Assembly: GCA_003153935.1 (NCBI GenBank)
Contig: PMCA01000027.1
Location: 9,405 to 73,404 of the forward strand
Reading direction: 5' to 3'
From: Elusimicrobiota bacterium
GTDB lineage: Bacteria; CAYTYR01; UBA6262
Length of the DNA: 64,000 nt
Shown: positions 2,467 to 51,880 of the stretch, piece after piece
Position numbering within the stretch: position 1 is the stretch's first letter
Layout: each line of letters begins with the position of its first letter
Notes under the pieces: generated by a model
The model's input: the letters and a program-made list of their open reading frames with translations, nothing else
What the model was told of the DNA's origin: nothing
The model's database searches: none
Translations under genes and position numbers: made by a program

Positions 2467-4278
2467 TCAGAAAGCTTGTCCGATGTTAACGTATATTTTA
2501 TACCGGCTGGTGCCCTGATAAGGTTTAAGCTTGTAACCGTAGTCCAGCCGTATAGGCCCGATGGGGGTATTATAGCGCAACCCCAACCCGGCGGTGGTCA
2601 GTAGCCCGTTTATAGTGTATTGCTTAGTATCAGCATAAACCTCTCCGTAGTCATAGAACAGGACTGCACCAAAATCCCGGTAAAGCGGGAACCTCATCTC
2701 CAGGTTACCTTCCCACTGCGAATTACCGCCCATCGGATTGTCGCTGGCGTCATGCGGACCCAGTTCCTGATAGGAATAACCCCGGACGCTGTAACTGCCG
2801 CCTGAGAAAAATCTCTTAAAGATCGGGAGGCTAGGACTATCGAAGATCGTCCGCGCGTAACCGAACTGGTTACGCCAGGCCAGGACCAGGTAGTCATTGA
2901 CCGGATAGAAATATTTATATTCCCAGATACCCCTCAGGAAACTAACCGAGGAACCTAAGTATTTGGGAGTGAATTCCCAGGTGAAGGAATCGATCTGTCC
3001 TTGTTTAGGATTAAAAATATCTTCCGTGGTCTTGTGCTGGAATCCGGTATTGAAGGAACTGAGGATATACCTGTGGGCGAACCCGGTATCCACATTATAA
3101 GATACAGCCGGATCGGTGATGAAGATTAAGTCCCTTTCCACCTGATAACCGAAGAAAACATTCAGCTTGGGAGTCAGGCTTCTTAAAATACGGGACAGCC
3201 CGGTCACCTTCTCCTGACGGTAGTAGTTATAGAAATCTTTTTCATAACCGACGCTGGTGATCAGGCTGGTAAACCGGTCGCTGAAATAAGGCTGGGTAAA
3301 ATTGACCGTTAATAAATGCTGCATAACCGCCAGTTTGCCGTTTATTTCCAGGTTGCCCCCCAGGCGGCCAAAATTCAGCAGTTTCCAAAAAGCCTGTATG
3401 CGTTCCCGGTCCTCGGCACCGTAGCCGGGCCCGATCTTCAAGTTGTAGAAGGGCCTTTCCTCTACCTGGAGGTTAATATCCAGGATCGACGGATCGTCCG
3501 GACGCGGCACCGGCTGCAGCGAGACCGATTTAAAAAATCCCAGGTCAAATATCCGGCGTTGGCTCTCGTTCAGTTTGCTGGCGTTAAAGATCTCTTTCCC
3601 GTTAAAGGTCAATTCGCGGGTGATCAGGCCCTCGCGCACATTGCGGGTGCCGGTGACCTTGATCAGGCCGAACTTTTGCATAGGTCCGCTTTGCAGGGTA
3701 TATTCCACTTTAGCTGAGCGCTGGACCCGGTCCATTAGCACCCGGCCGGTGAGCGAGGCCTCATAATAGCCATGGTCCGCCAGTATGGCCAGGATAACCT
3801 TCTTGGAATCATCGTAATTTTTATAAGAAAATATCCCGTTCTCATTGATCTTAAGGTTCTTATAGAGCAGTTTCTTAACTTCCGGGCTTATGCCGCCATC
3901 GTTCAGGATATCTATTTTACTGATCTTGAAATAATAACCCTCTTGGATATTCAAGCTGATATTCATTTTCTTCTTGGGCAGGAGTTTAAAAGTCGGGGTG
4001 ATCAAAGTGTCGTAAAACCCGCTATCTTCATAAAATATCACGATCCGGTCCAGATCGCTTTGGAGTACCTCGGCGTCAAAATAGCTGTTCTTGGCCCACA
4101 GCTTTCTTTCCTTCAGCTTCATTTGCGCTTTGATCTCAAAGGGCAGGAATTTCTTGACCCCTTCCAGATAGATCTGGTTTACCTGCAGATCTTTCGCGGC
4201 CGGCGCCTCATCCAGGGTCTGCGCCCGCAAGATCCCGGCGCTTAAGCATAAAATTAGTATGACCAACAATTTCTTCAT
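2467..4278 (-). CDS. tamA: TamA-like Omp85-family outer membrane protein (POTRA repeats plus beta-barrel)
   Basis: Signal peptide MKKLLVILILCLSAGILRAQ, POTRA-like repeats, and a C-terminal beta-barrel ending in ...NIGQAF (aromatic terminal residue typical of OMPs). Start reassigned from the track's 4323 to the ATG at 4278 (RBS AAGGGAAA), because a GC-rich terminator hairpin occupies 4298-4326. Confidence 0.7.
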   Translation of the reverse strand: MKKLLVILILCLSAGILRAQTLDEAPAAKDLQVNQIYLEGVKKFLPFEIKAQMKLKERKLWAKNSYFDAEVLQSDLDRIVIFYEDSGFYDTLITPTFKLLPKKKMNISLNIQEGYYFKISKIDILNDGGISPEVKKLLYKNLKINENGIFSYKNYDDSKKVILAILADHGYYEASLTGRVLMDRVQRSAKVEYTLQSGPMQKFGLIKVTGTRNVREGLITRELTFNGKEIFNASKLNESQRRIFDLGFFKSVSLQPVPRPDDPSILDINLQVEERPFYNLKIGPGYGAEDRERIQAFWKLLNFGRLGGNLEINGKLAVMQHLLTVNFTQPYFSDRFTSLITSVGYEKDFYNYYRQEKVTGLSRILRSLTPKLNVFFGYQVERDLIFITDPAVSYNVDTGFAHRYILSSFNTGFQHKTTEDIFNPKQGQIDSFTWEFTPKYLGSSVSFLRGIWEYKYFYPVNDYLVLAWRNQFGYARTIFDSPSLPIFKRFFSGGSYSVRGYSYQELGPHDASDNPMGGNSQWEGNLEMRFPLYRDFGAVLFYDYGEVYADTKQYTINGLLTTAGLGLRYNTPIGPIRLDYGYKLKPYQGTSRYKIYVNIGQAF

Positions 4279-4280
4279 GA

Positions 4281-4326
4281 TTTCCCTTAAAAGGAAAAGG
4301 GTGGTTGTAAAATATACAACCACCCT
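4281..4326 (-). terminator. Rho-independent terminator downstream of ppdK
   Basis: 12-bp perfect stem AGGGUGGUUGUA / UACAACCACCCU with a 5-nt loop, followed on the minus strand by UUUCCUUUU. It sits between the ppdK stop (4410) and the tamA-like ATG (4278). Confidence 0.65.
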
Positions 4327-11239: not shown

Positions 11240-12502
11240 TCAGCCGGTAAAAGTAACGATCACCAGTATCACCGATAACAATATCAGTGCCGCCGTGGTC
11301 ACCCAGGCGATAAAATTATATACCGGTCCGTTCGTGTACAAGCCCATGACCCGGCGGTCGTTGATCAGCAGCATCATGAAGATCAGGATCACCGGCAGCA
11401 AGATCCCGTTAATGGCCTGCGACATGATCATGATCGTGATCAGTGGTGCTTTCGGCCATAATATGAAGGCGGCGCCGGCTACGATCATCATCGTATAAAT
11501 GGAAATGAATTCAGGTGCCTGCTTGAAATTACGATCCACGCCTTTTTCCCAGCCGAACGCCTCGCAAACGGCATAAGCCGTGGACAAGGGTATGATGCAG
11601 GCCGAGAACAAGCCGGCGATGAACAGGCCAAGCGCAAACAGGACGGAAGCATACTTACCGGCCAGTGGCGCTAGCGCTACCGCCGCGTCCGCCGCGTTCT
11701 CGATCGGTATATGGTGGACGAACAAAGTGCCGGCGCAGGCGATGATGATAAAAAAAGCGACGATATCGGTGACCAGAGTGCCGAAAATAATATCCACTTT
11801 TTCATAAAAATAGTCTTTCACTTTAAGCTTCTTATCCACTACCGCGGCCTGCTGGTAGAATTGCATCCAGGGAGCGATGGTCGTGCCGATCACAGCGATG
11901 GCCAGGATAATGAAATTCTTGTCCAGCTGTATCGTAGGCACCGTCATGCTCTTGAGCGCCAGTCCCCAATGCGGCTTGGCCATAAATCCGGAGATAACAT
12001 AAGTAATATACATTCCGCAAGCAACGAGAAATATCTTCTCCACCGTCTTATAGGTGCCTTTCAGGATCAGGTACCAGACCACGAAAGCCGCTACGGGTAC
12101 GGAGATATAGCGGCTGATGCCGAAGATCTCCAGACTGGCCGCCACCCCGGCGAAATCGCCAACGGTATTGGCCAGGTTGGCGATAACCAGGATGATCATG
12201 GCAAAAAAAGTGATCCGGAAGCCAAAAGCACCGCGGATCAAAGCCGCCAGGCCTTTCTTGGTAACGATACCCATGCGCGCGCACATCTCCTGTACCAGGT
12301 ACAGGCAAACCGCGATCAAAGGCAGCAGCCACAGCATGGCATAGCCATAATGGGCGCCACAGACCGAATAAGTGGTAATGCCGTTAGCGTCATTATCCAC
12401 GCTGGCGGTAATGATCCCCGGACCCATCACGGCCAGGAAAATAGCCATCTTGGTCTTAAAATTTAACCATCTGTTGGGTTGGCCGGCAGTCTGCTGTTCC
12501 AC
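11240..12502 (-). CDS. mntH: NRAMP-family divalent metal (Mn2+/Fe2+) transporter
   Basis: 420 aa polytopic membrane protein; N-terminal MGPGIITASVDNDANGITTYS matches the Nramp DPGN-like signature region. Confidence 0.8.
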   Translation of the reverse strand: MEQQTAGQPNRWLNFKTKMAIFLAVMGPGIITASVDNDANGITTYSVCGAHYGYAMLWLLPLIAVCLYLVQEMCARMGIVTKKGLAALIRGAFGFRITFFAMIILVIANLANTVGDFAGVAASLEIFGISRYISVPVAAFVVWYLILKGTYKTVEKIFLVACGMYITYVISGFMAKPHWGLALKSMTVPTIQLDKNFIILAIAVIGTTIAPWMQFYQQAAVVDKKLKVKDYFYEKVDIIFGTLVTDIVAFFIIIACAGTLFVHHIPIENAADAAVALAPLAGKYASVLFALGLFIAGLFSACIIPLSTAYAVCEAFGWEKGVDRNFKQAPEFISIYTMMIVAGAAFILWPKAPLITIMIMSQAINGILLPVILIFMMLLINDRRVMGLYTNGPVYNFIAWVTTAALILLSVILVIVTFTG

Positions 12503-12517
12503 TATGATCCCTTGGCG

Positions 12518-13120
12518 TTAAAGATTATATAGATTCTTGACCAGTTTTTTGGAAATATCCAGTTTCAGGTAACGCATGCGTTTATCGTATTGCTTGACAT
12601 GGTCCCACATGATAATGTTCTCTACGATCTTCTTGCGGAATAAATTAACCAGTTTGAAGATCTCGCGTTCCGGCCCCAGGCGCAACAGCATGCTGTTGAT
12701 ATCCGCCTGGATACCGATGATCCGCAGCTTGCCTTTTTGGATGCGCAGCACCACGTCATTAACCCGGAAAAGATGTTTGCCGTAGCGGTCGACGATCTCT
12801 TCATCCATGATATCACGGTAAACAAAAAGCTCGTTATGCTCCACCGTGCCCGGGACGATTTCTTCCATAAAAACGCTCAGGTAGATGGCTTTCTTGGAAA
12901 GACAGGCCACGTCCTCCCACGGTATGACCAGCAGCTCCCGGTTCTTGAACGGGTTCAGGCCCCGCCGCCGGCTAGCCACGATCACGACCAGGTTCTTGAT
13001 CGGAGGAAACTCCTCTCCCATCAGGATAGTCAGGTCCTTGATCTTACCCACCGCAATATTGCCGGCGCTGATCACCGGCTTGCCGACAAAATCTTTATAA
13101 AAGCTATAGGGATTTTTCAC
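12518..13120 (-). CDS. PRC-barrel domain protein (hypothetical)
   Basis: 200 aa; N-terminal FVGKPVISAGNIAVGKIKDLTI fits the PRC-barrel G-x-x-V-x-x-x-G-x-x-hGkV-D motif; a second similar segment lies in the C-terminal half. Function unknown. Confidence 0.4.
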   Translation of the reverse strand: MKNPYSFYKDFVGKPVISAGNIAVGKIKDLTILMGEEFPPIKNLVVIVASRRRGLNPFKNRELLVIPWEDVACLSKKAIYLSVFMEEIVPGTVEHNELFVYRDIMDEEIVDRYGKHLFRVNDVVLRIQKGKLRIIGIQADINSMLLRLGPEREIFKLVNLFRKKIVENIIMWDHVKQYDKRMRYLKLDISKKLVKNLYNL

Positions 13121-14367
13121 TGTTCCTTCCGTATGGTCAATTTGATGATCCGCCGGCGGTTGGCCTCCACGATGACGAATTTCAGGTCCTTGTACTTTAT
13201 CTCCTCATCCTTGCGCGGCACCCGGCCCAGCAGGTCCACGACAAATCCGCTGACTGTGTTAAAATCCTCGCTCGGCAGGTTTATTTTCAATTTTTCATTG
13301 AGTTCATAAATATTCATTTTGCCATCTATTTGCATGGATCCGTCACTGAGTGGTTCCACGCCTAGGTCCTCCAGTTCGTATTCCTCCAGAATATCACCGA
13401 CGATCTGTTCCACCAGGTCTTCAACGGTCACCAGGCCGCTGGGTACGCCGTATTCGTCCACGGCAATGGCCAGGTGCAGGCGGCCCTTTTGCATCTGGCG
13501 CAGCAGCTTGTTCACTTTTTTCGTCTCCGGTACGAAATAGACCGGCCGCAGCAGGTCCTGTATAATGATCAGCTCATTGCAGCGCCAGGCGCCCAGCAGG
13601 TCCTTGACATGGATAACGCCGATAATATTGTCCAGCGTTTCTTTATAGATAGGCACCCGGGAATAGCCGGTTTCCACCACCGCGTCGATAAATTTTTCCT
13701 TGTCCAGGTTGATATCCACGCATTCCATGTCGATGCGCGGGATCATGATCGTCTTTACGACCTTATCGCCGAATTCCAGCACGCTGTGGATCATTTCCTT
13801 CTGTTCTTTTTCCAGTACGCCCTCGCGTACGCCCTCCGAAACCAGAAAGCGAATCTCCTCATCTTTGTCTAAGGGCTCGTCCTGCTTGATATTGCCGCCC
13901 AGAAATTTAACGATGGGATTGGTGATAAATATCATGGCTTTGATCAACGGGGACAGCAGGTAATGAACTATCAACAACAGGTCAATGGTCCAGGTGCTCA
14001 CCGCCTCCGGAGAATGCTTGGCCACAGTCTTGGGAATTATTTCCCCCAGGATGAGAATGATAAAAGTTATAAATACCGTAGAGATAACCGCCGCCCAACC
14101 CTCGGTCATATGATGGTTATTGGCAAAATCTACCGCCACGTAAGTAGCCAGCGCCGCGGCGGAAAGATTGACGATGGTATTGCCCACCAGTACCGCCGCC
14201 AGAAGTTTATTGGGATGATCGGCCCACATCTGCAGCGATTTCAATTTCTTTTCTTCTATTAACGACTTTATCGCAAACCGGTCCAGACTGGTCAAAGCCG
14301 TTTCCGTAGCAGCGAAAAAGAAACTGGCCAGGATAAGGATCGCTAAGACGATTAAGCTAATAAACAT
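13117..14367 (-). CDS. corC: HlyC/CorC-family transporter (CNNM/DUF21 TM domain, CBS pair and CorC_HlyC C-terminal domain)
   Basis: 416 aa; N-terminal DUF21 with FFFAATETALTSL; two CBS-like segments; C-terminal transporter-associated domain. Confidence 0.8.
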   Translation of the reverse strand: MFISLIVLAILILASFFFAATETALTSLDRFAIKSLIEEKKLKSLQMWADHPNKLLAAVLVGNTIVNLSAAALATYVAVDFANNHHMTEGWAAVISTVFITFIILILGEIIPKTVAKHSPEAVSTWTIDLLLIVHYLLSPLIKAMIFITNPIVKFLGGNIKQDEPLDKDEEIRFLVSEGVREGVLEKEQKEMIHSVLEFGDKVVKTIMIPRIDMECVDINLDKEKFIDAVVETGYSRVPIYKETLDNIIGVIHVKDLLGAWRCNELIIIQDLLRPVYFVPETKKVNKLLRQMQKGRLHLAIAVDEYGVPSGLVTVEDLVEQIVGDILEEYELEDLGVEPLSDGSMQIDGKMNIYELNEKLKINLPSEDFNTVSGFVVDLLGRVPRKDEEIKYKDLKFVIVEANRRRIIKLTIRKEQ

Positions 14368-14409: not shown

Positions 14410-15117
14410 TCAAAGCGGGCTCATCATCCGGAAAATGAACAAGGTTACGACCATGCCGATGATCGCGCCTCCGGCCACTTCCCACCAGGTGTGGATCCTG
14501 GCCCGTACCCGGCTGTGCGCCACCATGAAAGCCAGGATGAACACGAACAAGGCGATAAAACTGTTCTGGGTCATTAACGACACTGCCGTGCAAACGCCGA
14601 AGGCAAAAGCGCTATGGCCGCTGGGCATACCGCCCCAGAGCGGCCGGCCCTTGCCGAAATAGGCTTTGGCGATGATCACGGTTATAAAAATGATCACCAG
14701 GCAGGTGATCATGATGTATTCCGGTACCGCCTTGATCCTTAAAATGACCGGTATCATGTTCGTGCCCAAATAGCGCTTGCCGAAGATCAGATAGGACACG
14801 ACGATGGCGTTGGCCGAGGCGAAGAACACGGCACCGGCGGCGATATCCTTGGCCAGACGGGCCGCCGGGTGATAAGTATCGGTGACCAGATTAACCAGGG
14901 CTTCGATGGCCGTGTTGAACATTTCCGCCAGCAAGACCAGCATGATGGTGATCGCCAGCATGACCCACTCGATCCGGTCCAAGCGCACAAATAAACTGAA
15001 AAAGAAGACAAAAGCCGCCAGCCCCAAGTGGATGCGCATATTGCGCTGGGTTTTGGCCACATAGATTATGCCTTCGATAGCAGCGTTGAAACTTTCCATG
15101 ACATTGCGTGATTTCAT
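14410..15117 (-). CDS. dgkA: Fusion protein: DgkA-family lipid kinase (diacylglycerol/undecaprenol kinase) N-terminal domain plus PAP2-superfamily phosphatase C-terminal domain
   Basis: Residues 1-~120 carry the DgkA motif EMFNTAIEALVN. Residues ~125-235 carry PAP2 motifs KAYFGKGRP (KX6RP), PSGHS and SRVRARIH (SRX5H). Confidence 0.75.
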   Translation of the reverse strand: MKSRNVMESFNAAIEGIIYVAKTQRNMRIHLGLAAFVFFFSLFVRLDRIEWVMLAITIMLVLLAEMFNTAIEALVNLVTDTYHPAARLAKDIAAGAVFFASANAIVVSYLIFGKRYLGTNMIPVILRIKAVPEYIMITCLVIIFITVIIAKAYFGKGRPLWGGMPSGHSAFAFGVCTAVSLMTQNSFIALFVFILAFMVAHSRVRARIHTWWEVAGGAIIGMVVTLFIFRMMSPL

Positions 15118-15530
15118 TTATTCCCCAATACGGCTTTAAGTACTTTTTTTTCTTCCGCGCGCATTTTCTTTCTGGCCGCCGCTTTCAGGTCGTCGTAACC
15201 CAACAGGTGCAGTATCCCGTGGGTAGTTAAGAGAGCGATCTCTTCCCGGTAGGAATGCCCGTATTCCCGGGCCTGGCGTCTGGCGGTGCCGGTGCAGACA
15301 AAAACATCACCCAGTGCCACCACCGGCAAGTCGCTCTCCCGCTCGACCGGACTGGCGATAACATCAGTGGCGTAATCCCGTTTAAAGAACTGCCGGTTGA
15401 GCCGGATCATCTCCCGCTCACCGACGAAATAAAGACCCAGCTGGTATTCTTTGCTACGCGGCAGATAATGTCCGATGATATGCGCGGCTATTTTTCTGAC
15501 CAGCGGATAAGGAACCGTCGTTCTTTTCAC
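15114..15530 (-). CDS. ybeY: Endoribonuclease YbeY (rRNA maturation factor)
   Basis: 138 aa with the H-x-x-x-H-L-x-G-Y-D-D zinc motif (THGILHLLGYDD). Confidence 0.88.
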   Translation of the reverse strand: MKRTTVPYPLVRKIAAHIIGHYLPRSKEYQLGLYFVGEREMIRLNRQFFKRDYATDVIASPVERESDLPVVALGDVFVCTGTARRQAREYGHSYREEIALLTTHGILHLLGYDDLKAAARKKMRAEEKKVLKAVLGNK

Positions 15531-17002
15531 TTGGTTTCACGGCCTTCAGTGGGATATTCGACCCGGCTGTGGAACATGCCGCTGAGTATATGAGAAAATT
15601 GCTCGCCGATAATATGCAGGTCTTTCAGGCTGAGATCGCATTCTTCCAGCTGGCCGTCAACGAACTTGTTATTGATAATGCGGGTCACCAGCTCCTGCAC
15701 ATGCGCGTAACTGGGATCTTCCAGGGTGCGCGAAGCCGCTTCCACCGCGTCCGCCAGCAGGATGATAGCCGCTTCCCGGCTCTGCGGCTTGGGACCCGGA
15801 TAACGGAATTGCTCTTTGGTGGCTTCCGTATCCTCCTCCAGCGCCCGCTGATAGAAAAAATATACCAGGCTGGTGCCGTGATGCTGCTCGATGATATCGA
15901 TGATCTCCTGGCTTATCTTGTATTGCGCGGCCAGTTCCACCCCTTCTTTGACGTGGGAAAGCACGATCAGGCTGCTCATGCTGGGAGATAGGTCATCATG
16001 ACGGTTGTAGCTGTCCTGGTTCTCAATATAATATTCCGGCTTGGCCAACTTGCCGATATCGTGGTAGTAGCCCCCGACCCGGGCCAGAAGGGAATTGGAA
16101 CCGATAGCCGCCGCGGCGCTCTGGGCCAGGTTGCCCACCAGCAAGCAGTGGTGATAGGTCCCCGGGGCCTCAACCATCAGGCGTTTCAACAAGGGCTGGT
16201 TCAAGTCGGACAGTTCCAGTAATTTAATATTGGAGGAAATGCCGAACATATGTTCGAAATACGGCAGGAAACCGATGCTCAGGATACCGCATAAAAAGCC
16301 GTTGGCGATACCCCAGAGGCAATTATAGGCGATGACCTCCATCCTGGTAATCTGCAGTAAGGCCGAGAAACAGATTATACCGACGGCGTTGGCCACGCTG
16401 ATCAATAGTCCCGAGCGGATCAGGTCCGAGCGCTGTTGCACGCTGGAGGCGCTGAAAATACCCACCAGGCCGCCGATCAATTGGACGGTAAAAAGGTTAA
16501 GATCGTTATGATAGATGACACCGATCATGATGTCCAGCACCACCGTCATCAGTATGGCCAGGTCGATATCCACCAGGATGGTCATCAGGATCGAAACCAT
16601 GCCCAGCGGTATCAGGTAACCGCTTAAATGCATCTCCTGAAAGATCTTGGCCAGGGCGATGATCAGGATGCTGACCGATTCCAGGATGATCAGGTCGTTA
16701 TTGGATTCAAAAATATGGCGGGCGTAGCGGTATAAGTAAGCTCCCAGCAGGATAATGAAGCCCAGGCTGATCACTATATATCCGGAAACAAGACGCAGGG
16801 TGATGATCTCGAAACTGGACATGATGATCAGGACCGCCAGGAAAGTGAACAGCACGAACAGCCAGCGCGGCGCCGCCAGGGAAGACTGAAAAATACTCTT
16901 ACCCTCCCCGGTCAGATGCCTCTGCCGGTGTTCGTAGCGCCGGCTTATTTTCAACATCAGTACCAACATTTTCCTTATGGATCTCTGCAAGCGGGCTATC
17001 AT
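15527..17002 (-). CDS. pgpH: 7TM receptor with intracellular HD hydrolase domain (PgpH-type c-di-AMP phosphodiesterase family)
   Basis: 491 aa; N-terminal multi-TM region; C-terminal HD domain with HHCLLVGNLA and YYHDIGK. Confidence 0.8.
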   Translation of the reverse strand: MIARLQRSIRKMLVLMLKISRRYEHRQRHLTGEGKSIFQSSLAAPRWLFVLFTFLAVLIIMSSFEIITLRLVSGYIVISLGFIILLGAYLYRYARHIFESNNDLIILESVSILIIALAKIFQEMHLSGYLIPLGMVSILMTILVDIDLAILMTVVLDIMIGVIYHNDLNLFTVQLIGGLVGIFSASSVQQRSDLIRSGLLISVANAVGIICFSALLQITRMEVIAYNCLWGIANGFLCGILSIGFLPYFEHMFGISSNIKLLELSDLNQPLLKRLMVEAPGTYHHCLLVGNLAQSAAAAIGSNSLLARVGGYYHDIGKLAKPEYYIENQDSYNRHDDLSPSMSSLIVLSHVKEGVELAAQYKISQEIIDIIEQHHGTSLVYFFYQRALEEDTEATKEQFRYPGPKPQSREAAIILLADAVEAASRTLEDPSYAHVQELVTRIINNKFVDGQLEECDLSLKDLHIIGEQFSHILSGMFHSRVEYPTEGRETK

Positions 17003-17988
17003 TTGGCCCCCTTAAATCCCGAGCCTTCGTATTCTTCATAAGCTTTTATGATCTTCTTGACCAGCTGGTGGCGCACCACGTCGCGGCCAGTGAAGTAAAT
17101 GAATTTAATACCGCTGATGCCTTTGAGAATATGGCTGATCTGCACCAAGCCGCTCATCTTCTTATTCTGCAGGTCTATCTGGGTAACGTCGCCGACAATG
17201 ACCGTGGTTGTTTCAAAACCTAACCGGGTCAGGAACATCTTCATCTGCTCCGGGTTGGTATTCTGGGCTTCATCCAGTACGATAAAAGCGTCATTCAGTG
17301 TGCGCCCGCGCATATAAGCCAGCGGCACGATCTCGATCACGCCCTCGTCCCGCAGGTGATGGAACTCCTCCGCGCCCATGATCTCATAAAAGGCGTCATA
17401 CAGGGGCCTCAGATAAGGGTCCACTTTTTCGTACAGGTCCCCCGGCAGGAATCCAAGCTTCTCCCCGGCCTCCACCACCGGCCGGGTCAAAACAATGCGG
17501 TTGGCCTCCTGAGCGCGTAAAGCGGCGACCGCCATGGCTACGGCCAGGTAAGTCTTGCCGGTGCCGGCCGGGCCGATACCGAATACCAGGTCGTATTTTT
17601 TCATGGCCTTGATATATTTTTTCTGGGTCTGGCTGCGGGCGGTGATCTTCTTGCCCTTGATCGTATAGCAGACCGCTTCCTTATCAACTTCACCGGCTTC
17701 GCCCGGCTTGGCTTCCACTGCCGCGGCCTGGTAGAGCGGATTTTGCAGCATACCGCGGACGCCCTTGCGGTCGACCCGGTAGCCGCGGCGGATCTGATCG
17801 GTCAATTCCTGGATCATCCGATAGGCCTGGCTGACCTTGGCTTTGTTGCCCTTGATCATCAGGGTATTGCCGTAAGTGACCAGGTTAACGTCGAACTCGT
17901 TCTCGACCATGCGCAGGTTCTCGTCATGCGGACCGAAAACGTTCAGCATTTCCTCATTATCCTGTAAATATATCGTTTTAGTAACCAT
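16999..17988 (-). CDS. phoH: PhoH-like ATPase
   Basis: 329 aa; Walker A GPAGTGKTYLAVAMAV; the phoH-pgpH-ybeY-dgkA order is a widely conserved operon. Confidence 0.88.
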   Translation of the reverse strand: MVTKTIYLQDNEEMLNVFGPHDENLRMVENEFDVNLVTYGNTLMIKGNKAKVSQAYRMIQELTDQIRRGYRVDRKGVRGMLQNPLYQAAAVEAKPGEAGEVDKEAVCYTIKGKKITARSQTQKKYIKAMKKYDLVFGIGPAGTGKTYLAVAMAVAALRAQEANRIVLTRPVVEAGEKLGFLPGDLYEKVDPYLRPLYDAFYEIMGAEEFHHLRDEGVIEIVPLAYMRGRTLNDAFIVLDEAQNTNPEQMKMFLTRLGFETTTVIVGDVTQIDLQNKKMSGLVQISHILKGISGIKFIYFTGRDVVRHQLVKKIIKAYEEYEGSGFKGAK

Positions 17989-21996: not shown

Positions 21997-23391
21997 CTAT
22001 TGTATTTTATAATTTTTCAAATTATGTCCGCACCAGGGCTTGACGCAGTAACCCTTCTCCTGGTGAGAAATGCAATTTAAGTCCTGCTCGTTATCGATAT
22101 GGTCGGCGAGCAATCCCGCGAACAGCCGCACGTAAAACTGCGCCCGCGTGCAGGGATCGTATCTCTTCCAGAAATCACCCCATTTATAATCGCGCTCATA
22201 CCGTGACCTGATCAGCCCGGCGATATGCTTAGGATGCCAGTTCAGTTTGGTCAACAGCCGGGTGATCAGCTGGATATTGGTCGGCTTCAGTAAATTATTA
22301 TTCGGGTAACGCAACGCGTGCGCGGCGCAGGCCGGCAGATCGTCAATATGGAAATAGTCATAAGAGCGCGGCCATTCGACCGGCGAATGCATATATTCCT
22401 GATCAAAGTATTTATGAAATTTAATCAATTGGGAATGCTTATAACTGTTGATCAGTTTCATCACCGCCGCCGACGCGTCCGGTATAACGGTATGGATGTG
22501 CGCGGCGTAATCGGCGGCCTGCTTATAATTCTGTCTGATCAGCAGCATATCCTCCAGGCTCAGCTCGATCCGGGGAATGGTCACCTGTATCGGCGTGGCG
22601 TCGGCCACCTGCTCGGTAAATTTCTGCTTCTGGACCTTATGTTTCTGGTACAGGCTGAAAGCGCAGCGAGTATCGCGGATGTTCATCGGGTCCCCGTACA
22701 TGGACAGGTCCAGGTTGATGGCCTCGCGGCCCTCGCCGCCCTTGCCTACCGCCGTGTCCGTGCAAACCACCGGCAGAGGACTGACCAGCTTGATCTCCTT
22801 GATCACCTGGTGCGACACATATTCCAGCAGCCGACCCATGCCGTCATGGGCCAGGTTGAAGCGCAGGTTATTCAGGTTTTCCAATGAAAGATCGCGGGTC
22901 GCGGCCAGGTTATCGCTGAGCTTGCCGATCTTTTCCAGGGCCTTATTGGTCCGGGAATCGCGCTTGATCTCGAAAGCGAAATGATATCCCTGCCCGGTCA
23001 TGATCACCAGCGGATGTATTTCCAGTCGGTGGAAGACTTTTAAAATAGCCTTATAGACCGGCTCGATCTTGGTAAAGACTTCCTCCGGCTGCAAATACGC
23101 TTTGCCGGGGAAATCCATGTTAAAATATTCTATATCCAGTATGCCAATCGTAAAATTTACGTCACTGACCGAGCGGAATATATCCAAACCTTTTTCCAGT
23201 ATCCAGTCGAACTTATCCTTGGTAGTGGAAATAAAATTGCGGGCGTTTATGTCTTCCTGCTGCAGCACCGTCCCGTAACCGACTAAATACTGGGCGGAGA
23301 ACCCCATCGGATCCTGCACTTCGCCCCCGCAGTATTCCGCAATGCGTTTTCGCACATGCGAGTTCTTGTAAAACTCTTTGTCTGGCGTCAT
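21997..23391 (-). CDS. Hypothetical protein, 464 aa, with a C-terminal Cys/His cluster; no family recognised
   Basis: Long uninterrupted ORF with a near-consensus promoter and RBS; ends ...CISHQEKGYCVKPWCGHNLKNYKIQ. I cannot assign it to a known family. Confidence 0.5.
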   Translation of the reverse strand: MTPDKEFYKNSHVRKRIAEYCGGEVQDPMGFSAQYLVGYGTVLQQEDINARNFISTTKDKFDWILEKGLDIFRSVSDVNFTIGILDIEYFNMDFPGKAYLQPEEVFTKIEPVYKAILKVFHRLEIHPLVIMTGQGYHFAFEIKRDSRTNKALEKIGKLSDNLAATRDLSLENLNNLRFNLAHDGMGRLLEYVSHQVIKEIKLVSPLPVVCTDTAVGKGGEGREAINLDLSMYGDPMNIRDTRCAFSLYQKHKVQKQKFTEQVADATPIQVTIPRIELSLEDMLLIRQNYKQAADYAAHIHTVIPDASAAVMKLINSYKHSQLIKFHKYFDQEYMHSPVEWPRSYDYFHIDDLPACAAHALRYPNNNLLKPTNIQLITRLLTKLNWHPKHIAGLIRSRYERDYKWGDFWKRYDPCTRAQFYVRLFAGLLADHIDNEQDLNCISHQEKGYCVKPWCGHNLKNYKIQ

Positions 23392-24688: not shown

Positions 24689-25945
24689 TTATCCGCTGCG
24701 CTCTGTCTTATACCACAGGGCTTTTTCCTTTTTTATAAAATCCTTAATGAAAGCGGATATTACCACCACCAGCCAAAGCTGGCAATAGGTGAAATACATC
24801 AGTATAACGTAAAAAATATTGGTGACGCTGTCTTCATTCGATTCCCGCGAAAGCATCAGTACAATCTCGCTGACGAAAAGCATGTAGGCGGCTATCCAAA
24901 CTTCCAGGAACGGCCCCTGTATCCGGATATGGACCAGGTTCAGCAACCCGAGGATAAAGAATATATCCGATGAGATCATGGCCAGGAAAAATACGTAATA
25001 CATTACAAAAAACAGCAGGAATTCTGTGCCTATCGCCTTATTCTTGAACGCCTTGAATTCAGCCAACACCCTGGTCAGCACATAATTATTCCCTCTGACC
25101 CAGCGTTCTCTTTGACGCAACCAGACCTTGACTTTTTCCGGTTCCTGCTCCCTGGTAATAGCTTCCGGCACGAAACAGATCTTCCCGCCAGCCCGGTAAA
25201 GCCGTAAGGACAGCTCCGCGTCTTCGGTCAAGGCCTTCTCATCCCAACCGCCTACCGCCTGGACTGATTTTTTCCAGATGACAAAGTTGGTACCGGGAAG
25301 GATGGCAATATTGAAGAAAAATGAGCGGCCCGCCTGGATGATCCATTGGAAAGTCAAGGATTCAATATTAATGAACCTGGTAAGCAGGTTTTTATCCTTA
25401 TTAATGGTGCGAAATTTGCCTATCGCCGCTACTATATCTTTTTTGGTCACCAACTCCCGTACTAGTATTTTCAGGGATGCAGTCTCTGGACGGTTATCCG
25501 CGTCGTAAACCGCAATGATCTCCCCGCTGGTCCGCTCCAAGGCGATATTTAATACGCGAGACTTACCCTGACCGCTCTCGGCCAGCGGGATATTTATTAC
25601 CTTCAGCCGACTGTCGTTGATAGATTCCAGAATCTCCCGGGTACGGTCAGTGGAGCCGTCATTGATGATGATAACCTCTATCTTATCCGCCGGATAGTCC
25701 AAGCGAAATAAACAAGAAACCGTTTCCGCGATGACCTTCTCTTCGTTCCGGGCGGGGATGATAACGCTCACCAAAGGCCAGTCCTTAAAACCAGGGGCCA
25801 TTATACTCGCCTTGTTTTTTCTCCGGCTGTAAAGATAGCCACCAAAGGTAAGGATTACCTGATACACCAGCATCAACCAGATGATGGCTACGGAGAGCAA
25901 ATAAATTGATTCAAAAATAATATCGGTCATGATTATGGCCACCAT
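24689..25945 (-). CDS. Processive family-2 glycosyltransferase (PgaC/IcaA/cellulose-synthase-like polysaccharide synthase)
   Basis: 418 aa; two N-terminal TMs; GT2 catalytic domain (VIIPARNEE...IINDGSTD); the Q-x-x-R-W motif (QRERWVRG); C-terminal TM bundle. Confidence 0.8.
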   Translation of the reverse strand: MVAIIMTDIIFESIYLLSVAIIWLMLVYQVILTFGGYLYSRRKNKASIMAPGFKDWPLVSVIIPARNEEKVIAETVSCLFRLDYPADKIEVIIINDGSTDRTREILESINDSRLKVINIPLAESGQGKSRVLNIALERTSGEIIAVYDADNRPETASLKILVRELVTKKDIVAAIGKFRTINKDKNLLTRFINIESLTFQWIIQAGRSFFFNIAILPGTNFVIWKKSVQAVGGWDEKALTEDAELSLRLYRAGGKICFVPEAITREQEPEKVKVWLRQRERWVRGNNYVLTRVLAEFKAFKNKAIGTEFLLFFVMYYVFFLAMISSDIFFILGLLNLVHIRIQGPFLEVWIAAYMLFVSEIVLMLSRESNEDSVTNIFYVILMYFTYCQLWLVVVISAFIKDFIKKEKALWYKTERSG

Positions 25946-28900
25946 TTCCTTTTAATCTGTATCGCCAGGAACAAAGCGATGAAAGTAACGCTGGTAAAGA
26001 ACCCGAAAATAAAGATGAGCGAGAATAACACTACTCCGGAGGTTTCCACCAGGCGGGCCAGGCCGCCGGCCACTACGATCTTTACAACGTGAGTACCCCG
26101 CGGTAGCCTGACGGAGTAACCGGTATCGCCCTCGTAAATTTGGCAATTGGCGCGATTATCGTCCACGTATATCCTGGCCGGGATCTTATTGATTATGGCA
26201 TAGCAGGCCGACCGTTCAGCGCTGTAAGAGAATTCTATGGCATTATTGGAAAAGTTGGCCCATTTGAGTTCTCCGGAAATATAGCTAAGCCGGGGCTTCA
26301 TGCTGGCCATATCGAAATACCGGGGTTCAGCTTCGAACTTCAGGGTATGTTCACCAGCCGGGACCACCACTTCCTCGCCTTCCCCGGCAAACCAATTATC
26401 ATCATCCAGCTTGGTGATCAATCCCTGCCGGCCGCTCCTGATAGTGACCATATAAGGAGTATTGATCTTCCATTGTGTATCGGATTCAGCTTTAATGTTA
26501 ACATCACGCGCCAGCACCGAAGAAATATTCCGGTAATCGTTCTCATAAATAGTCGCCTCGGAATAGAATACCGGCCGGCTCTTCGTCAGGTCCATGTTGT
26601 AAGCGATCTGCCTGATCTCCTCGCCGGTCGGCTTTTCCGCCGGCAGGCCGCCCTCACCTTTTTTATGATTGTCCAGGATATTACAGTCTAATGCCAGCTG
26701 GTCGTCCGCTTTGATGAATTTACGGTAATAATTACCCAGGGTGAGATAACGATCGGGCTTCCCGCTCCAGAACGGCAGGGAATCCTCGACCTGTAGAGTG
26801 AGATCGTATTTTTTCTGCAAGCTGATCAGGTTATCGGTACTTTCCCCCAGGTAGTCTTCCAACTGGGGCGCCTGGCTGGTATCGATAGCGGTCATTACTA
26901 TCTCAAAATCCTTTTTCTTCTGCTGGATGCCGGACAACATGTCCAGGTAATAGGTTTTCAGGCGGAAACTTAAGTCCCGGCGGTAGCGGGCCAGTTTCCC
27001 CCAATCTTCAGGATGGTTCTGCCAGTAATGCGCGCTCTGCGGGTCGAATATCTGCAACGGGTCGAACCCGTATATTCCCGTGAATTCTTTCCTTACCGTT
27101 TCGTTCATGGGCGTAAAATTCTCGGGATAGGCCGGCCCGCCGGCAGACTCGAAATAAAGCTCCGAGAGATTAACGCCATCCCAATCGTACCTGGTAAGTA
27201 AAGCGCTGATCTCGGAAAACGCTTTCTGCCGGCAATGTTCGTCAGCCAGGTTCATTAAATTACGCCACGAAACCTTACCGTCTTTCAGCTTAGCGGTCTT
27301 CTCCCGCCATTCCGGATGTTGGTCCCAAAAACGCTGGTTGACCATGGGCGGTTCCAGCCAGCAATAGACCAAAATGCCGTTCTGGTGGCAGACCTTAAGT
27401 AAACGGGCGTAGTCATAGGAATACTTGCTATAAAAATGCCAGCCCCCGGCATAGATCTTCTGCACGCCATATTTTCTCCAGAGCACGGCCAGTTTCTCAA
27501 TACTGATGAACTGTCGCATCCCGGGATCAAAATACATCTCCGCGGCCTTGCGCTCTGCCAGCAACGGATAATTAAATACGCTGGTCAATGTTTCCGCGAG
27601 AAAAGGGAAACGTGAATAACCGCGATCGCTATCCGGGTCAAAATAAGTGGCATAATAGAGGAAACCGCCTTTGCCTAACCTCCCACCGACGGCCACCGGC
27701 AGGTTGGAAGATTCTTCGGCGCTTATAATTTGATAATCCTTGTCCGCTGATTTGTATATCGGCTTAACGCCGGCGGTTTTGGACCAATACAGCGGCAGAT
27801 CCGGAAATTGGTTATCGCGTATCTGCTTGACCAGGATCGACTCTTCCTGCAGTTCTATTCCCAAGGCATCGCCCACCTTAGTCGCTCCATCGGTAACCAG
27901 ATCGGCGCCGGAGCTTATGGCCTCCAACAAGTGTTTAATTTCCTCTGCTTTTAAATTTTTGGCGGCGGCATAAGGCAGGATGATAAGGTCATAATCACGC
28001 AAATCGAGATTAAGGATATCCTTGCTATTCAGGTCCTGGAATTTTATCCCGGCCACGGAGAGAGAGAATTTTAGGGATTTAAGATCATTGTTCTCCTCCC
28101 TGGAAACAGGCGGGACCGGAGGGTCAATAAAAGCCACGTCCATAACTTCATTCAATTTTCCGCCTGATTTTTTTGCGCTTATCCGGCGCAGGTAACTCAA
28201 GTCAGTCTTCGCCAAGTGCCACATTTTTTTCCAGAACCCCGGCTCCAGGTTCTCCTGGGGTTTGACCACTACGTACTCTCCCGGACCGCACTTTACCGGC
28301 ACGGTATTTTGCTGGCCAGCGGTATTTACCAGGATTTGCTGGCTTACCTCCTGGCCCTGTAAATTAAAAGTTTTTATGGCCAGGTACTTATCGTTGCTCA
28401 AGACGCTGACATCGGTTGTTTGCGAGACTATGGCCTTATCTTTGGCCCTGACCTCCGGAGAGAACTCCTTAATATCCCCGAACACATAGCCTAATTTCCT
28501 GACGCCTTTGACTATCTGGCGCAGGTAAGATATGTCGATGATCGGGTGGAAAAAGAAACTGGCAAAACCATCCCTGACCGAGAGATTAAGCCGGGCGGCA
28601 TCGATGATCTCCTGGGCGTCCGGTTTATCCAGGTGCACATAGCCCAGGTTTTCCGGAATAGTTTCTTGCCCGAAGATATCCGTGACGCGGTAGGGAAAGA
28701 ACTGGTCGGTGCCCAGGAAATTCCTGACCCGGCGGCGTTCATAGACCAGTGAAAAATATTTCTTGATGGCGTGGTAAGCGTTATCCGAGGCGAAATAGTG
28801 CGGCGTTTCCCAGACCAGGGGATAGATATCATTGCTGAAGCATTCCCGCAACCCCTTCTCGATCCGCAGCGCGGCGTTATCATAAGAGTCTCCGCGCACC

Positions 28901-29874: not shown

Positions 29875-29875
29875 T

Positions 29876-41243: not shown

Positions 41244-42587
41244 TTATCTGTCTACCAGGGTAAACATGAACTCCGCTTCCGCGACCAATTTAGAATTAAC
41301 GAAAGCCTTGCCGCACACTATCCCGGTTTTGCTTTTAACTCTCAATAATTCCGCTTCGAAGATTATCGTATCCCCAGGTACTACTGTCTGGCGGAATTTT
41401 ACTTTATCGATGGTCATAAAATAGGCCAATTTGCCGGCGTTCTCGCTCTTTTTAAGCAACAGCACGCCCGCCACTTGCGCCATGGATTCTATCAACAAAA
41501 CGCCCGGCATGACCGGATGACCAGGGAAATGCCCGCGGAAGAAATCCTCGTTAATGGTGACGTTTTTCAAACCGATCGCTTTTTTATCTTCTTCGATCTT
41601 GAGGATCTTGTCCACCAGCAGGAACGGCGGCCGGTGCGGCAGGACCTTTTGCACTTCGTTCGTGTCCATGAGCGGATTATTCAGGTCTAGGTCCGCGAAA
41701 CGATCGGCCTTGCCGGTCGTCCCGGGGGCAGCCTGAGGAGACGCTGCGGATTTGGCTTCTTTATTTTTCAATTGTTTAAGTTTCTTCACAAAACTGACGT
41801 TAGACGGATGTCCGCACCTGACCGCGATGATATGAGCTTTTAACGGCTGTCCCAGGAGACAAAAATCGCCGATCAGGTCCAGGATCTTATGCCGCACGAA
41901 CTCATCGGCAAAGCGCAGTTCAGTATGAATACCCTTCTCGCCGATAATGACCGCATTGTTCAAATTGCCGCCCTTGGCCAGTCCCTGTTTCTTCAGGGTT
42001 TCTATCTCATAATCAAAGCAAAAAGTCCGCGAAGGCGCGATCTCTTTGACGTAAGTTTCCGGATTAACAGTGAAAGTTGCATATTGTGATTTCAGGAAGG
42101 GATGATCATAGTTTATGGTCAGGCTGACTTTGAATTCCGCGGCCGGCACGGCGATAATGCTGGTTTGGCCATCGACAAAATAAAGCGGTTCCTTCAGTTC
42201 GAAATAATTCCGCGGTGCGTCCTGCTCCACCAGGCCGGCTTTCTGCAGGGTCTGGATAAAGGGCATGGCGCTGCCGTCCCCGACGGGCGGTTCATTGGCG
42301 TTGATCTCGATCATGGCGTTGTCCACGCCCAGGCCGTAGAGAGCCGATAATATGTGCTCTACCGTATGGACCTTGACCTCACCGAGGCCGATGTTGGTCC
42401 CGCGCTTGACATCAATGACATTATTGACATCGGCCGCGAAAAGATTGTCAGTTTTCTGGTCGATGCGCATGAACTTGATGCCGCTATTGGCCGGCGCCGG
42501 CTTAAAAGTTATGCTGGTGATACTGCCGGTATGCAGGCCGACACCCGAATAGGAAATCGGCTCTTTTAATGTTTTTTGTTTTTCCAT
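41244..42587 (-). CDS. lpxC: Bifunctional UDP-3-O-acyl-GlcNAc deacetylase / 3-hydroxyacyl-ACP dehydratase (LpxC-FabZ fusion)
   Basis: 447 aa. N-terminal LpxC: LHTGSITSITFKPA, HTVEHILSAL. C-terminal FabZ hot-dog domain: FFRGHFPGHPVMPGVLLIESMAQVAG. Confidence 0.88.
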   Translation of the reverse strand: MEKQKTLKEPISYSGVGLHTGSITSITFKPAPANSGIKFMRIDQKTDNLFAADVNNVIDVKRGTNIGLGEVKVHTVEHILSALYGLGVDNAMIEINANEPPVGDGSAMPFIQTLQKAGLVEQDAPRNYFELKEPLYFVDGQTSIIAVPAAEFKVSLTINYDHPFLKSQYATFTVNPETYVKEIAPSRTFCFDYEIETLKKQGLAKGGNLNNAVIIGEKGIHTELRFADEFVRHKILDLIGDFCLLGQPLKAHIIAVRCGHPSNVSFVKKLKQLKNKEAKSAASPQAAPGTTGKADRFADLDLNNPLMDTNEVQKVLPHRPPFLLVDKILKIEEDKKAIGLKNVTINEDFFRGHFPGHPVMPGVLLIESMAQVAGVLLLKKSENAGKLAYFMTIDKVKFRQTVVPGDTIIFEAELLRVKSKTGIVCGKAFVNSKLVAEAEFMFTLVDR

Positions 42588-51864: not shown

Positions 51865-51880
51865 CTTATCCTTCAAAATA

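What the first reader, a model, noticed from the sequence alone, without database searches (positions are those of the whole stretch)
14410..15117. DgkA lipid kinase fused to a PAP2 phosphatase domain inside the phoH-pgpH-ybeY-dgkA operon
The 235-aa product combines a complete DgkA domain (E..NTAIE motif; undecaprenol/diacylglycerol kinase family) with a C-terminal PAP2 domain carrying KX6RP, PSGH and SRX5H motifs (the undecaprenyl-pyrophosphate / PA phosphatase family). A kinase and a phosphatase acting on polyprenol or lipid carriers in one polypeptide suggests a coupled lipid-carrier recycling module. The ybeY gene overlaps it by 4 nt, so this is not an assembly artefact of two separate genes.
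Basis: partly seen in the sequence, partly recalled or inferred. Interest (0 to 1): 0.55.

Follow-up and report, generated by a model that had tools for sequence, protein, structure and literature searches.

The report
Common DgkA lipid kinase–PAP2 phosphatase fusion
The gene really encodes one membrane protein joining a small lipid kinase to a stripped-down lipid phosphatase, but this fusion is common and already catalogued in hundreds of bacterial species; the one intriguing point is that the phosphatase is predicted to face the cell interior, unlike all characterised relatives.

Summary
Window 14410-15117 (minus strand) is one uninterrupted 235-aa ORF. It has a complete DAGK_prokar domain (113 bits) and a PAP2 domain (47.8 bits, cut-off 27.2). 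All quoted motifs are present, and its ATG overlaps the ybeY stop by 4 nt.

It is not rare. There are 1724 homologous 90%-identity clusters, and every full-length hit among the best 120 has the same architecture. At least 594 species genomes carry it (Clostridia, Nitrospirota, Omnitrophota, Elusimicrobiota, Actinomycetota). Nearly all copies sit in the same phoH-pgpH-ybeY-[dgkA]-…recO neighbourhood. Databases label it "diacylglycerol kinase" or "PAP2 family protein". I found no paper that characterises it.

The PAP2 half is a minimal 4-helix core with invariant catalytic K, H, R and H, a Glu in place of the motif's Asp, and a C1 Arg that the family does not conserve.

Three DgkA helices precede the four PAP2 helices, and no family member has a linker that could span the membrane. 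The phosphatase site is therefore predicted on the cytoplasmic face, beside the kinase site. This is inferred, not shown.

Best reading: a cytoplasmic-leaflet module that maintains the undecaprenyl-phosphate pool. Verdict: an ordinary new member of a known but uncharacterised family, with a testable topology hypothesis.

The parts
14410..15117 (-). Complete dgkA::PAP2 ORF, 235 aa
   Evidence: single ORF, ATG start; 1724 homologous clusters, the top full-length hits 228-248 aa with PF01219+PF01569.
14782..15084 (-). DgkA (DAGK_prokar) domain, residues 12-112: N-terminal surface helix plus three transmembrane helices
   Evidence: 113.4 bits, full profile; helices 6-23, 25-42, 48-78, 84-116. Foldseek match to E. 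coli DgkA 3ze3/3ze5, target-normalised TM-score 0.90, rmsd 1.3-1.5 A.
14902..14925 (-). Kinase catalytic motif E65-M-F-N68-T-A-I-E72 at the cytoplasmic end of TM2
   Evidence: E65, N68 and E72 each conserved in 200 of 203 family members; K90 in 201 of 203.
14716..14781 (-). Inter-domain linker, residues 113-134, charged and amphipathic, with a short helix at 122-129
   Evidence: 8-residue helix, pLDDT about 66; mean Kyte-Doolittle hydropathy -0.30, about 4.9 charged residues, length 11-24 aa across the family, and 0 of 203 members with a 19-residue window above 1.6.
14422..14715 (-). Minimal PAP2 core, residues 135-232: four transmembrane helices
   Evidence: PAP2 47.8 bits, profile 48-125/130; helices 134-154, 167-182, 186-205, 211-232; profile matches LpxE 6ebu at 3e-10 and B. 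subtilis PgpB/YodM 5jki at 1.6e-5.
14641..14667 (-). PAP2 motif C1, K151-AYFGKG-R158-P159
   Evidence: K151 in 203 of 203; position 158 is Thr 99, Arg 40, Lys 16 of 203; P159 in 171 of 203.
14614..14625 (-). PAP2 motif C2, P165-S-G-H168
   Evidence: S166 in 203 of 203, H168 in 202 of 203.
14479..14514 (-). PAP2 motif C3, S202-R203-x5-H209-x3-E213 (Glu instead of Asp)
   Evidence: R203 in 203 of 203, H209 in 202 of 203, E213 in 190 of 203 (Asp only 4).
15114..15530 (-). ybeY (endoribonuclease); its stop overlaps the dgkA::PAP2 start by 4 nt
   Evidence: YbeY 112.7 bits.
15527..17002 (-). pgpH-like 7TM-HD hydrolase
   Evidence: 7TM-7TMR_HD 138.8 bits, HD 63.2 bits; upstream of the fusion in 63 of 80 related loci.
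16999..17988 (-). phoH-like ATPase
   Evidence: PhoH 312.7 bits; upstream in 39 of 80 loci.
13117..14367 (-). CNNM/CBS/CorC_HlyC transporter-type gene, 42 nt downstream
   Evidence: downstream in 12 of 80 loci.

Best explanation
This is a genuine single-polypeptide, 7-helix inner-membrane enzyme, and an ordinary member of a large, conserved DgkA-PAP2 fusion family.

The N-terminal half is a DgkA-fold lipid kinase. It sits at the genomic position held by the B. subtilis undecaprenol kinase gene. The C-terminal half is a minimal 4-helix PAP2 histidine phosphatase with an intact catalytic core.

DgkA contributes an odd number (3) of membrane helices, and the linker cannot cross the membrane. The PAP2 active site is therefore predicted at the cytoplasmic leaflet, next to the ATP-dependent kinase site. 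That is the opposite of the periplasmic orientation of characterised bacterial PAP2 enzymes.

Most likely function: the two sites together maintain the pool of undecaprenyl monophosphate (C55-P) on the cytoplasmic face. The PAP2 site would remove a phosphate from polyprenyl (pyro)phosphate, with freshly synthesised C55-PP as the favoured substrate. The kinase site would convert undecaprenol, including any over-dephosphorylated product, back to C55-P.

Shown: the ORF, both domains, catalytic-residue conservation, family size and synteny. Inferred: topology, substrates and coupling.
For: - Domains and fold.
- Purifying selection on both active sites across 203 divergent members.
- Same architecture in 1724 clusters and at least 594 species genomes.
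- Conserved position after pgpH-ybeY and before (cdd-era-)recO. By my own knowledge this is the B. subtilis dgkA position. B. subtilis DgkA is an undecaprenol kinase (Jerga 2007, as cited in PMC5723303).
- Helix count: two AF2 models (window protein and the 46%-identical C. perfringens protein) both give a surface helix plus 3 + 4 long helices.
- Linker: not membrane-competent in any of 203 members, and as short as 11 aa in some.
- DgkA orientation: its H2-H3 loop and active site are cytosolic (PMC4703834).
- N-terminus inside: N-terminal fusions to the cytoplasmic RNase YbeY exist in at least 3 clusters, one of them on two independent contigs.
- K/R distribution: 13.0 on the predicted cytoplasmic side against 4.9 on the other.
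- The loop opposite the PAP2 active site lacks the Lys-rich patch seen in LpxE and YodM.
- One genuine stand-alone relative keeps one N-terminal TM plus the linker in front of the 4-helix core. This is compatible with the same orientation but does not establish it.
Against: - No coordinates, PAE or experimental topology were available. pTM is only 0.51-0.56 and the linker has the lowest pLDDT (61-73), so domain packing is unknown.
- The linker carries about 3 K/R, which is high for a short periplasmic loop. The PAP2 half alone has almost no K/R bias.
- All characterised bacterial PAP2 enzymes face the periplasm (PMC12401180).
- Substrate identity is entirely inferred. The closest solved PAP2 relatives match only weakly (LpxE 43 bits).
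- A kinase and a phosphatase on the same face risk a futile cycle unless the phosphatase is specific for pyrophosphate or is regulated.
- The window organism is an LPS-containing diderm, whereas undecaprenol pools are documented in Gram-positives.
Confidence: 0.5

Rival explanations
1. Antagonistic switch. The PAP2 site dephosphorylates C55-P to undecaprenol and the kinase reverses it. The fusion would set the size of an inert undecaprenol reserve rather than process C55-PP.
For: - Gram-positive bacteria hold an undecaprenol pool regarded as a reserve (PMC12345219).
- A C55-P phosphatase activity was detected in S. aureus but never assigned to a protein, and the source of undecaprenol is an open question (PMC5723303).
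- Both sites are predicted on the same face.
- Loss of the C1 Arg in most of the family could reflect a monophosphate substrate.
Against: - Without regulation this is an ATP-burning futile cycle, and no regulatory domain is present.
- Huang et al. 2017 (title cited) report that undecaprenol kinase itself can run in reverse, so a separate phosphatase is not strictly required.
- Most fusion-bearing phyla outside Clostridia are diderms, for which undecaprenol pools are not documented.
Confidence: 0.2
2. Glycerolipid enzyme. The kinase phosphorylates diacylglycerol as E. coli DgkA does. The PAP2 half dephosphorylates phosphatidate, diacylglycerol pyrophosphate or phosphatidylglycerol phosphate, tuning DAG/PA or making PG on the cytoplasmic face.
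For: - Database names are 'diacylglycerol kinase' and 'PAP2 family'.
- The fold is identical to E. coli DAG kinase.
- The nearest solved PAP2 relatives include the PGP phosphatase B. subtilis PgpB/YodM.
- The organism is a diderm.
Against: - The gene holds the position of the B. subtilis undecaprenol kinase gene (gene order from my own knowledge).
- Identity to E. coli DgkA is only 22-28%.
- The names are automatic, not experimental.
Confidence: 0.2
3. Canonical orientation. The PAP2 site faces the periplasm and recycles released C55-PP, while the kinase works inside. This requires the linker or another segment to cross the membrane.
For: - All characterised bacterial PAP2 enzymes face the periplasm (PMC12401180).
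- The linker has about 3 K/R, as a cytoplasmic loop would.
- The linker has the lowest model confidence.
Against: - The linker is hydrophilic (mean hydropathy -0.30, about 5 charged residues). No 19-residue window exceeds 1.6 in any of 203 members, and it is only 11 aa long in some.
- AF2 models it as an 8- or 16-residue amphipathic helix, not a membrane span.
- The DgkA half matches the 3-helix crystal structure at TM-score 0.90.
Confidence: 0.2
4. Artefact: two adjacent genes joined by a sequencing or assembly error.
For: Such artefacts do occur in this family. P0266, an apparent DgkA-PAP2-cytidine deaminase, is produced by two frameshifts in what looks from the contig name like an error-prone long-read assembly.
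Against: - The window ORF is uninterrupted, and its length and ends match the family consensus.
- The same fused ORF is found in complete genomes of cultured Clostridium, Thermoanaerobacterium and others.
Confidence: 0.01

Closest known systems
DgkA-PAP2 fusion family. Pfam architecture PF01219+PF01569. I recall NCBI CDD listing it as cd03383 'PAP2_diacylglycerolkinase' with function 'remains to be determined'; that is a recollection, not checked here.
   Same: Same length (about 232-241 aa), same domain order, same invariant residues and same gene neighbourhood. Identity is 95-74% to the closest hits, metagenome proteins of which two are labelled Elusimicrobia/Elusimicrobiota or 'bacterium', and 45-47% to the Clostridium perfringens and Thermoanaerobacterium proteins.
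   Different: Nothing substantive. The window protein retains the C1 Arg (R158) that about 80% of the family has lost.
Bacillus subtilis / Streptococcus mutans DgkA (undecaprenol kinase)
   Same: DAGK_prokar fold and the same position downstream of phoH-pgpH-ybeY and upstream of (cdd-)era-recO (B. subtilis gene order from my own knowledge; function as cited in PMC5723303).
   Different: Those proteins are stand-alone, about 120-130 aa, with no PAP2 extension. Sequence identity to them was not measured here.
Escherichia coli DgkA (PDB 3ZE3, 3ZE5, 4UXZ)
   Same: Surface helix plus 3-TM fold (target TM-score 0.90, rmsd 1.3-1.5 A). The conserved Glu/Asn/Glu and Lys/Asp catalytic residues are present.
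   Different: Only 22-28% identity. The E. coli enzyme is a DAG kinase, ends after TM3 and sits in a different genomic context.
Aquifex aeolicus LpxE (6EBU) and B. subtilis PgpB/YodM (5JKI), canonical membrane PAP2 phosphatases
   Same: The C2 and C3 motifs and the last three or four helices align (NCBIfam LpxE 24 bits, far below its cut-off).
   Different: - The canonical enzymes have six helices and a periplasmic active site; here the first two helices are missing.
- The C1-C2 loop is only 6 residues here, against about 18 in LpxE.
- The HX3D Asp is Glu.
- The C1 Arg is not conserved in the family.
- The predicted orientation is inverted.
DUF212 'divergent PAP2' (PF02681)
   Same: A small PAP2-like membrane protein. 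There is a weak match at E=0.0077, 16.9 bits.
   Different: The score is below the family cut-off of 26.5, so the protein is not a member.

Membership tests
DAGK_prokar (PF01219) / DgkA fold | Profile score above the curated cut-off over the whole domain | tested here: met
   113.4 bits against 22.3, profile 2-102/102.
DAGK_prokar (PF01219) / DgkA fold | N-terminal amphipathic surface helix plus three transmembrane helices | tested here: met
   AF2 helices 6-23, 25-42, 48-78, 84-116. Foldseek match to 3ze3/3ze5 with TMt 0.90.
DAGK_prokar (PF01219) / DgkA fold | Catalytic acidic/Asn cluster on TM2 and Lys-Asp at the start of TM3 | tested here: met
   E65, N68, E72, K90 and D91 are present. The first four are about 99% conserved in 203 members; position 91 is D in 152 and N in 48.
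DAGK_prokar (PF01219) / DgkA fold | Homotrimer with shared active sites | not testable with these tools
   Only monomer prediction without coordinates was available.
Undecaprenol kinase subgroup of DgkA | Positional orthology with B. subtilis dgkA (phoH-pgpH-ybeY-dgkA-cdd-era-recO) | tested here: met
   Window order is phoH-pgpH-ybeY-fusion. In 80 loci, pgpH is upstream in 63 and recO downstream in 61. cdd/era follow the fusion in L001 and L085. The B. subtilis order is from my own knowledge.
Undecaprenol kinase subgroup of DgkA | ATP-dependent phosphorylation of undecaprenol in preference to DAG | not testable with these tools
   Needs an enzyme assay.
PAP2 (PF01569) lipid phosphate phosphatase | Profile score above the curated cut-off | tested here: met
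   47.8 bits against 27.2, but only profile positions 48-125 of 130.
PAP2 (PF01569) lipid phosphate phosphatase | Motif C1 KX6RP | tested here: met
   K151-x6-R158-P159 is present in this protein. At family level the Arg is present in only 40 of 203 members, with Thr in 99.
PAP2 (PF01569) lipid phosphate phosphatase | Motif C2 PSGH | tested here: met
   P165-S-G-H168. S is conserved in 203 of 203 and H in 202 of 203.
PAP2 (PF01569) lipid phosphate phosphatase | Motif C3 SRX5HX3D | tested here: inconclusive
   S202-R203-x5-H209 is present and invariant. The final acidic residue is Glu213 (190 of 203), not Asp (4 of 203). The substitution is conservative, but its effect is untested.
PAP2 (PF01569) lipid phosphate phosphatase | Six-helix membrane core as in PgpB and LpxE | tested here: not met
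   Only four helices (134-154, 167-182, 186-205, 211-232) follow the linker. Pfam profile positions 1-47 are unmatched.
PAP2 (PF01569) lipid phosphate phosphatase | Active site on the periplasmic/extracytoplasmic face (true of all characterised bacterial members, PMC12401180) | tested here: not met
   This is a prediction only. The 3 + 4 helix parity with a non-spanning linker puts C1-C3 on the cytoplasmic face. Experimental mapping is needed.
DgkA-PAP2 fusion family | One ORF of about 230-240 aa in the order DAGK_prokar then a minimal PAP2 | tested here: met

The most novel reading that the evidence does not exclude
The PAP2 half of this fusion family would be the first bacterial PAP2 phosphatase with a cytoplasm-facing active site. 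It would act as the long-sought enzyme that dephosphorylates newly synthesised undecaprenyl pyrophosphate (made by UppS on the inner leaflet) directly to C55-P, with the fused kinase rescuing any undecaprenol formed. At least for the many lineages carrying the fusion, that would answer how de novo C55-P is made without flipping C55-PP outward.
Probability: 0.25. Interest if true: 0.75.

Novelty: new member of a known kind. Interest (0 to 1): 0.38.

Why it matters
As a discovery the fusion itself adds little. It is common, conserved and already annotated.

Its value is as a lead. Two questions in cell-wall lipid-carrier metabolism are still open in the literature I could read:
- Which enzyme, if any, dephosphorylates de novo C55-PP on the cytoplasmic face (PMC12401180, 2025: 'currently unknown')?
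- Where does the undecaprenol that DgkA-type kinases phosphorylate come from (PMC5723303)?

A PAP2 domain welded to an undecaprenol-kinase-type DgkA, and forced by helix parity to face the cytoplasm, is a concrete and experimentally tractable candidate for either role. It occurs in cultivable Clostridium and Thermoanaerobacterium species.

Tried and rejected
1. Apparent counter-evidence to the topology. P0266 looked like DgkA-PAP2 fused C-terminally to cytoplasmic cytidine deaminase, which would put the C-terminus inside. Reading the DNA showed two frameshifts: the real N-terminus and the real C-terminus 'VFQGFYA*' lie in other frames. Rejected as an assembly artefact.

2. 'Split' homologues. 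Most short PAP2-only hits to the C-terminal half are not split genes.
- P0236 and P0154 start at contig edges.
- P0135, P0232 and P0269 begin with the tail of DgkA TM3.
- P0125 and P0126 have nonsense-like N-termini.
- Only P0159 is a convincing stand-alone gene.

3. Literature. Nine searches found no paper describing or testing the fusion. The Lipocone/PAP2 survey (PMC12419801) does not mention it. The Van Horn & Sanders DgkA/UDPK review could not be opened.

4. NCBIfam gave no meaningful equivalog: LpxE 24 bits against 177 and SepP 16 bits against 250. No substrate assignment can be drawn from it.

5. K/R counting as a stand-alone orientation test for the PAP2 half was inconclusive, because that half is nearly neutral. 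Orientation rests on helix parity and the strongly biased DgkA half.

6. Rfam and tRNA scans of the window found nothing.

7. I ran no further search on the DgkA half alone, because the top hits would again be fusions.

Full report
**The observation**

The finding's coordinates hold a single open reading frame on the minus strand (14410..15117, 235 aa, ATG start, no internal stop).

Pfam places a complete prokaryotic diacylglycerol-kinase domain at residues 12-112 (113.4 bits, whole profile). It places a PAP2 domain at residues 161-232 (47.8 bits, above the curated cut-off of 27.2).

- EMFNTAIE, nt 14902-14925
- KAYFGKGRP, nt 14641-14667
- PSGH, nt 14614-14625
- SRVRARIH followed by TWWE, nt 14479-14514

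The ybeY gene (15114..15530) overlaps the start by the 4 nt ATGA. pgpH (15527..17002) and phoH (16999..17988) are chained by the same kind of overlap. The only corrections are the strand, and that the last residue of the third PAP2 motif is Glu rather than Asp.

**How common it is**

A search of 5.8 billion protein clusters returned 1724 homologues. Every full-length hit among the best 120 (228-248 aa) carries both Pfam domains; one hit, P0018, is a partial 186-aa sequence with only the kinase domain. They include proteins from cultured Clostridium perfringens, Thermoanaerobacterium and Peptacetobacter, and from Nitrospirota, Omnitrophota and Elusimicrobiota MAGs. Their source names are only 'diacylglycerol kinase' or 'phosphatase PAP2 family protein'.

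In the 80 loci fetched, pgpH lies upstream in 63, leaving a ybeY-sized gap, and recO lies downstream in 61. In some loci cdd and era follow the fusion directly.

That is the gene order I know for B. subtilis (phoH-pgpH-ybeY-dgkA-cdd-era-recO). B. subtilis DgkA is an undecaprenol kinase (Jerga et al. 2007, as cited in PMC5723303). The fusion is therefore the positional counterpart of a stand-alone undecaprenol kinase. It is also clearly not an assembly artefact.

I also recall, without being able to check here, that NCBI CDD lists this architecture (cd03383) with its function 'to be determined'. In nine literature searches I found no paper that describes or tests it.

**Anatomy**

Two AlphaFold2 models give the same layout: an N-terminal surface helix, three long helices, a short linker helix, then four long helices. 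One model is of the window protein (pLDDT 84). The other is of the 46%-identical C. perfringens protein (pLDDT 85).

The first half superposes on E. coli DgkA crystal structures with a target-normalised TM-score of 0.90 and rmsd 1.3-1.5 A. The second half is most similar to A. aeolicus LpxE and B. subtilis PgpB/YodM.

The second half corresponds only to the last four helices of those six-helix enzymes. The Pfam profile is matched from position 48 onward, and the loop between motifs C1 and C2 is 6 residues long, against about 18 in LpxE.

Across 203 fused family members:

| Residue | Role | Conservation |
|---|---|---|
| E65, N68, E72, K90 | kinase | about 99% |
| K151, S166, R203 | phosphatase | 100% |
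| H168, H209 | phosphatase | 99.5% |
| E213 | acidic residue after the nucleophile His | Glu 94%, Asp 2% |
| position 158 | Arg of KX6RP | Thr 49%, Arg 20%, Lys 8% |

The window protein is in the minority that keeps the Arg at position 158. Both halves are under strong purifying selection and are presumably active. The PAP2 half is a distinct, stripped-down subfamily.

**Topology (inferred)**

In DgkA the surface helix, the H2-H3 loop and the active site are cytosolic (PMC4703834). The third helix therefore ends on the far side of the membrane. The PAP2 fold requires that the helix bearing C1 ends at the active-site face.

The two are joined by residues 113-134. Across 203 members this linker has:
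- mean hydropathy of -0.30
- about five charged residues
- a length of only 11-24 residues
- no 19-residue window above 1.6 on the Kyte-Doolittle scale, a commonly used threshold for a membrane span

It therefore cannot cross the membrane. AF2 models it as an 8- or 16-residue amphipathic helix. It follows that the PAP2 active site lies on the same face as the kinase site, the cytoplasmic one.

Supporting points:
- N-terminal fusions to the cytoplasmic RNase YbeY exist in at least three 50%-identity clusters, one of them on two independent contigs.
- K/R counts are 13.0 on the predicted inner side against 4.9 on the outer.
- The loop opposite the PAP2 site lacks the Lys-rich patch present in LpxE and YodM.
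- The one convincing stand-alone relative (P0159) keeps one N-terminal helix plus the linker ahead of the 4-helix core. This fits the same orientation but does not establish it.

Points against:
- The linker carries about three K/R, which is many for a short periplasmic loop.
- The PAP2 half alone has little charge bias.
- pTM is 0.51-0.56 and I had no coordinates.
- All characterised bacterial PAP2 enzymes face outward (PMC12401180).

An apparent contradiction was a DgkA-PAP2-cytidine deaminase protein, P0266. It turned out to result from two frameshifts in what looks from the contig name like an error-prone long-read assembly.

I put the cytoplasm-facing orientation at roughly 0.7-0.75.

**Mechanism**

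My preferred reading is a cytoplasmic-leaflet module for undecaprenyl-phosphate homeostasis. The PAP2 site removes a phosphate from polyprenyl (pyro)phosphate. The DgkA site uses ATP to turn undecaprenol into C55-P. Both would deliver C55-P where MraY-type enzymes use it.

The attractive sub-version is that the substrate is newly made C55-PP. The cytoplasmic phosphatase for that step is 'currently unknown' (PMC12401180).

Rivals:
- An antagonistic C55-P/undecaprenol switch that creates the reserve pool. A C55-P phosphatase has never been assigned to a protein (PMC5723303; PMC12345219).
- A glycerolipid DAG-kinase / PA- or PGP-phosphatase pair.
- The canonical outward orientation.

None of these can be separated without topology mapping, enzyme assays and lipid measurements, which are specified in the next-steps field.

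**Context**

The window comes from an LPS-bearing diderm. It carries two Omp85/BamA-type genes, TamB, an LpxC-FabZ fusion and an MsbA-like ABC transporter. The closest homologues (74-95% identity) are metagenome and MAG proteins, of which two are labelled Elusimicrobia/Elusimicrobiota or 'bacterium'. The operon runs hisS-aspS-phoH-pgpH-ybeY-fusion-corC.

**Verdict**

I score it as a new member of a known kind, with modest interest (0.38). The interest comes almost entirely from the testable prediction that this PAP2 subfamily faces the cytoplasm.

Noticed in passing
Other metagenome proteins P0198, P0261, P0262 (loci L002 1050-2258, L003 100-1308): Triple fusions YbeY-DgkA-PAP2 (392-460 aa) exist in at least three 50%-identity clusters, with 25-85 aa linkers. 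P0262 is found on two independent contigs. This ties an RNA-processing nuclease physically to the lipid enzyme, which is unexplained beyond the conserved operon.
   Followed up: partly
L001 3890-4990: The apparent DgkA-PAP2-cytidine deaminase protein (P0266) is an artefact of two frameshifts in a contig whose name suggests a long-read assembly. This is a warning that some odd architectures in the protein collection are indel products.
   Followed up: yes
window 1-64000: Essentially the whole window is transcribed from the minus strand: of the 49 ORFs of 200 aa or more, the only plus-strand ones (8) lie inside minus-strand ORFs. Many neighbouring genes overlap by 4 nt (hisS/aspS, phoH/pgpH, pgpH/ybeY, ybeY/dgkA). 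No tRNA gene and no Rfam family hit occur in 64 kb.
   Followed up: partly
window 41244-42587 (-): A bifunctional LpxC-FabZ(FabA-like) fusion protein, 447 aa. Together with MsbA-like ABC (35822-37549), TamB (47014-51876) and two Omp85/POTRA proteins (2467-4323, 44445-46937), it shows the organism is an LPS-containing diderm.
   Followed up: partly
window 25933-30018 (-): A very large ORF (1361 aa, TTG start) whose only Pfam match is DUF2334 at residues 277-505. It overlaps the upstream CstA gene (29876-31846) by about 143 nt, so the called start is probably too far upstream. It is flanked by glycosyltransferase genes.
   Followed up: no
window 21997-23391 (-): A 464-aa ORF with no Pfam match at E<=1e-5, between a xylose-isomerase-like TIM-barrel gene and a GT4 glycosyltransferase.
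   Followed up: no
window 11240-13120 (-): An Nramp metal transporter and a 200-aa protein with a weak PRC-barrel match lie between corC and recO, where Clostridia usually have cdd/era. No era gene was seen next to the operon in this window.
   Followed up: no
L084 665-1114: A stand-alone 149-aa relative of the minimal PAP2 core (P0159), located after an rpoD-like gene. It has a single N-terminal TM plus the same linker in front of the four core helices, which is compatible with the same orientation as in the fusions.
   Followed up: partly
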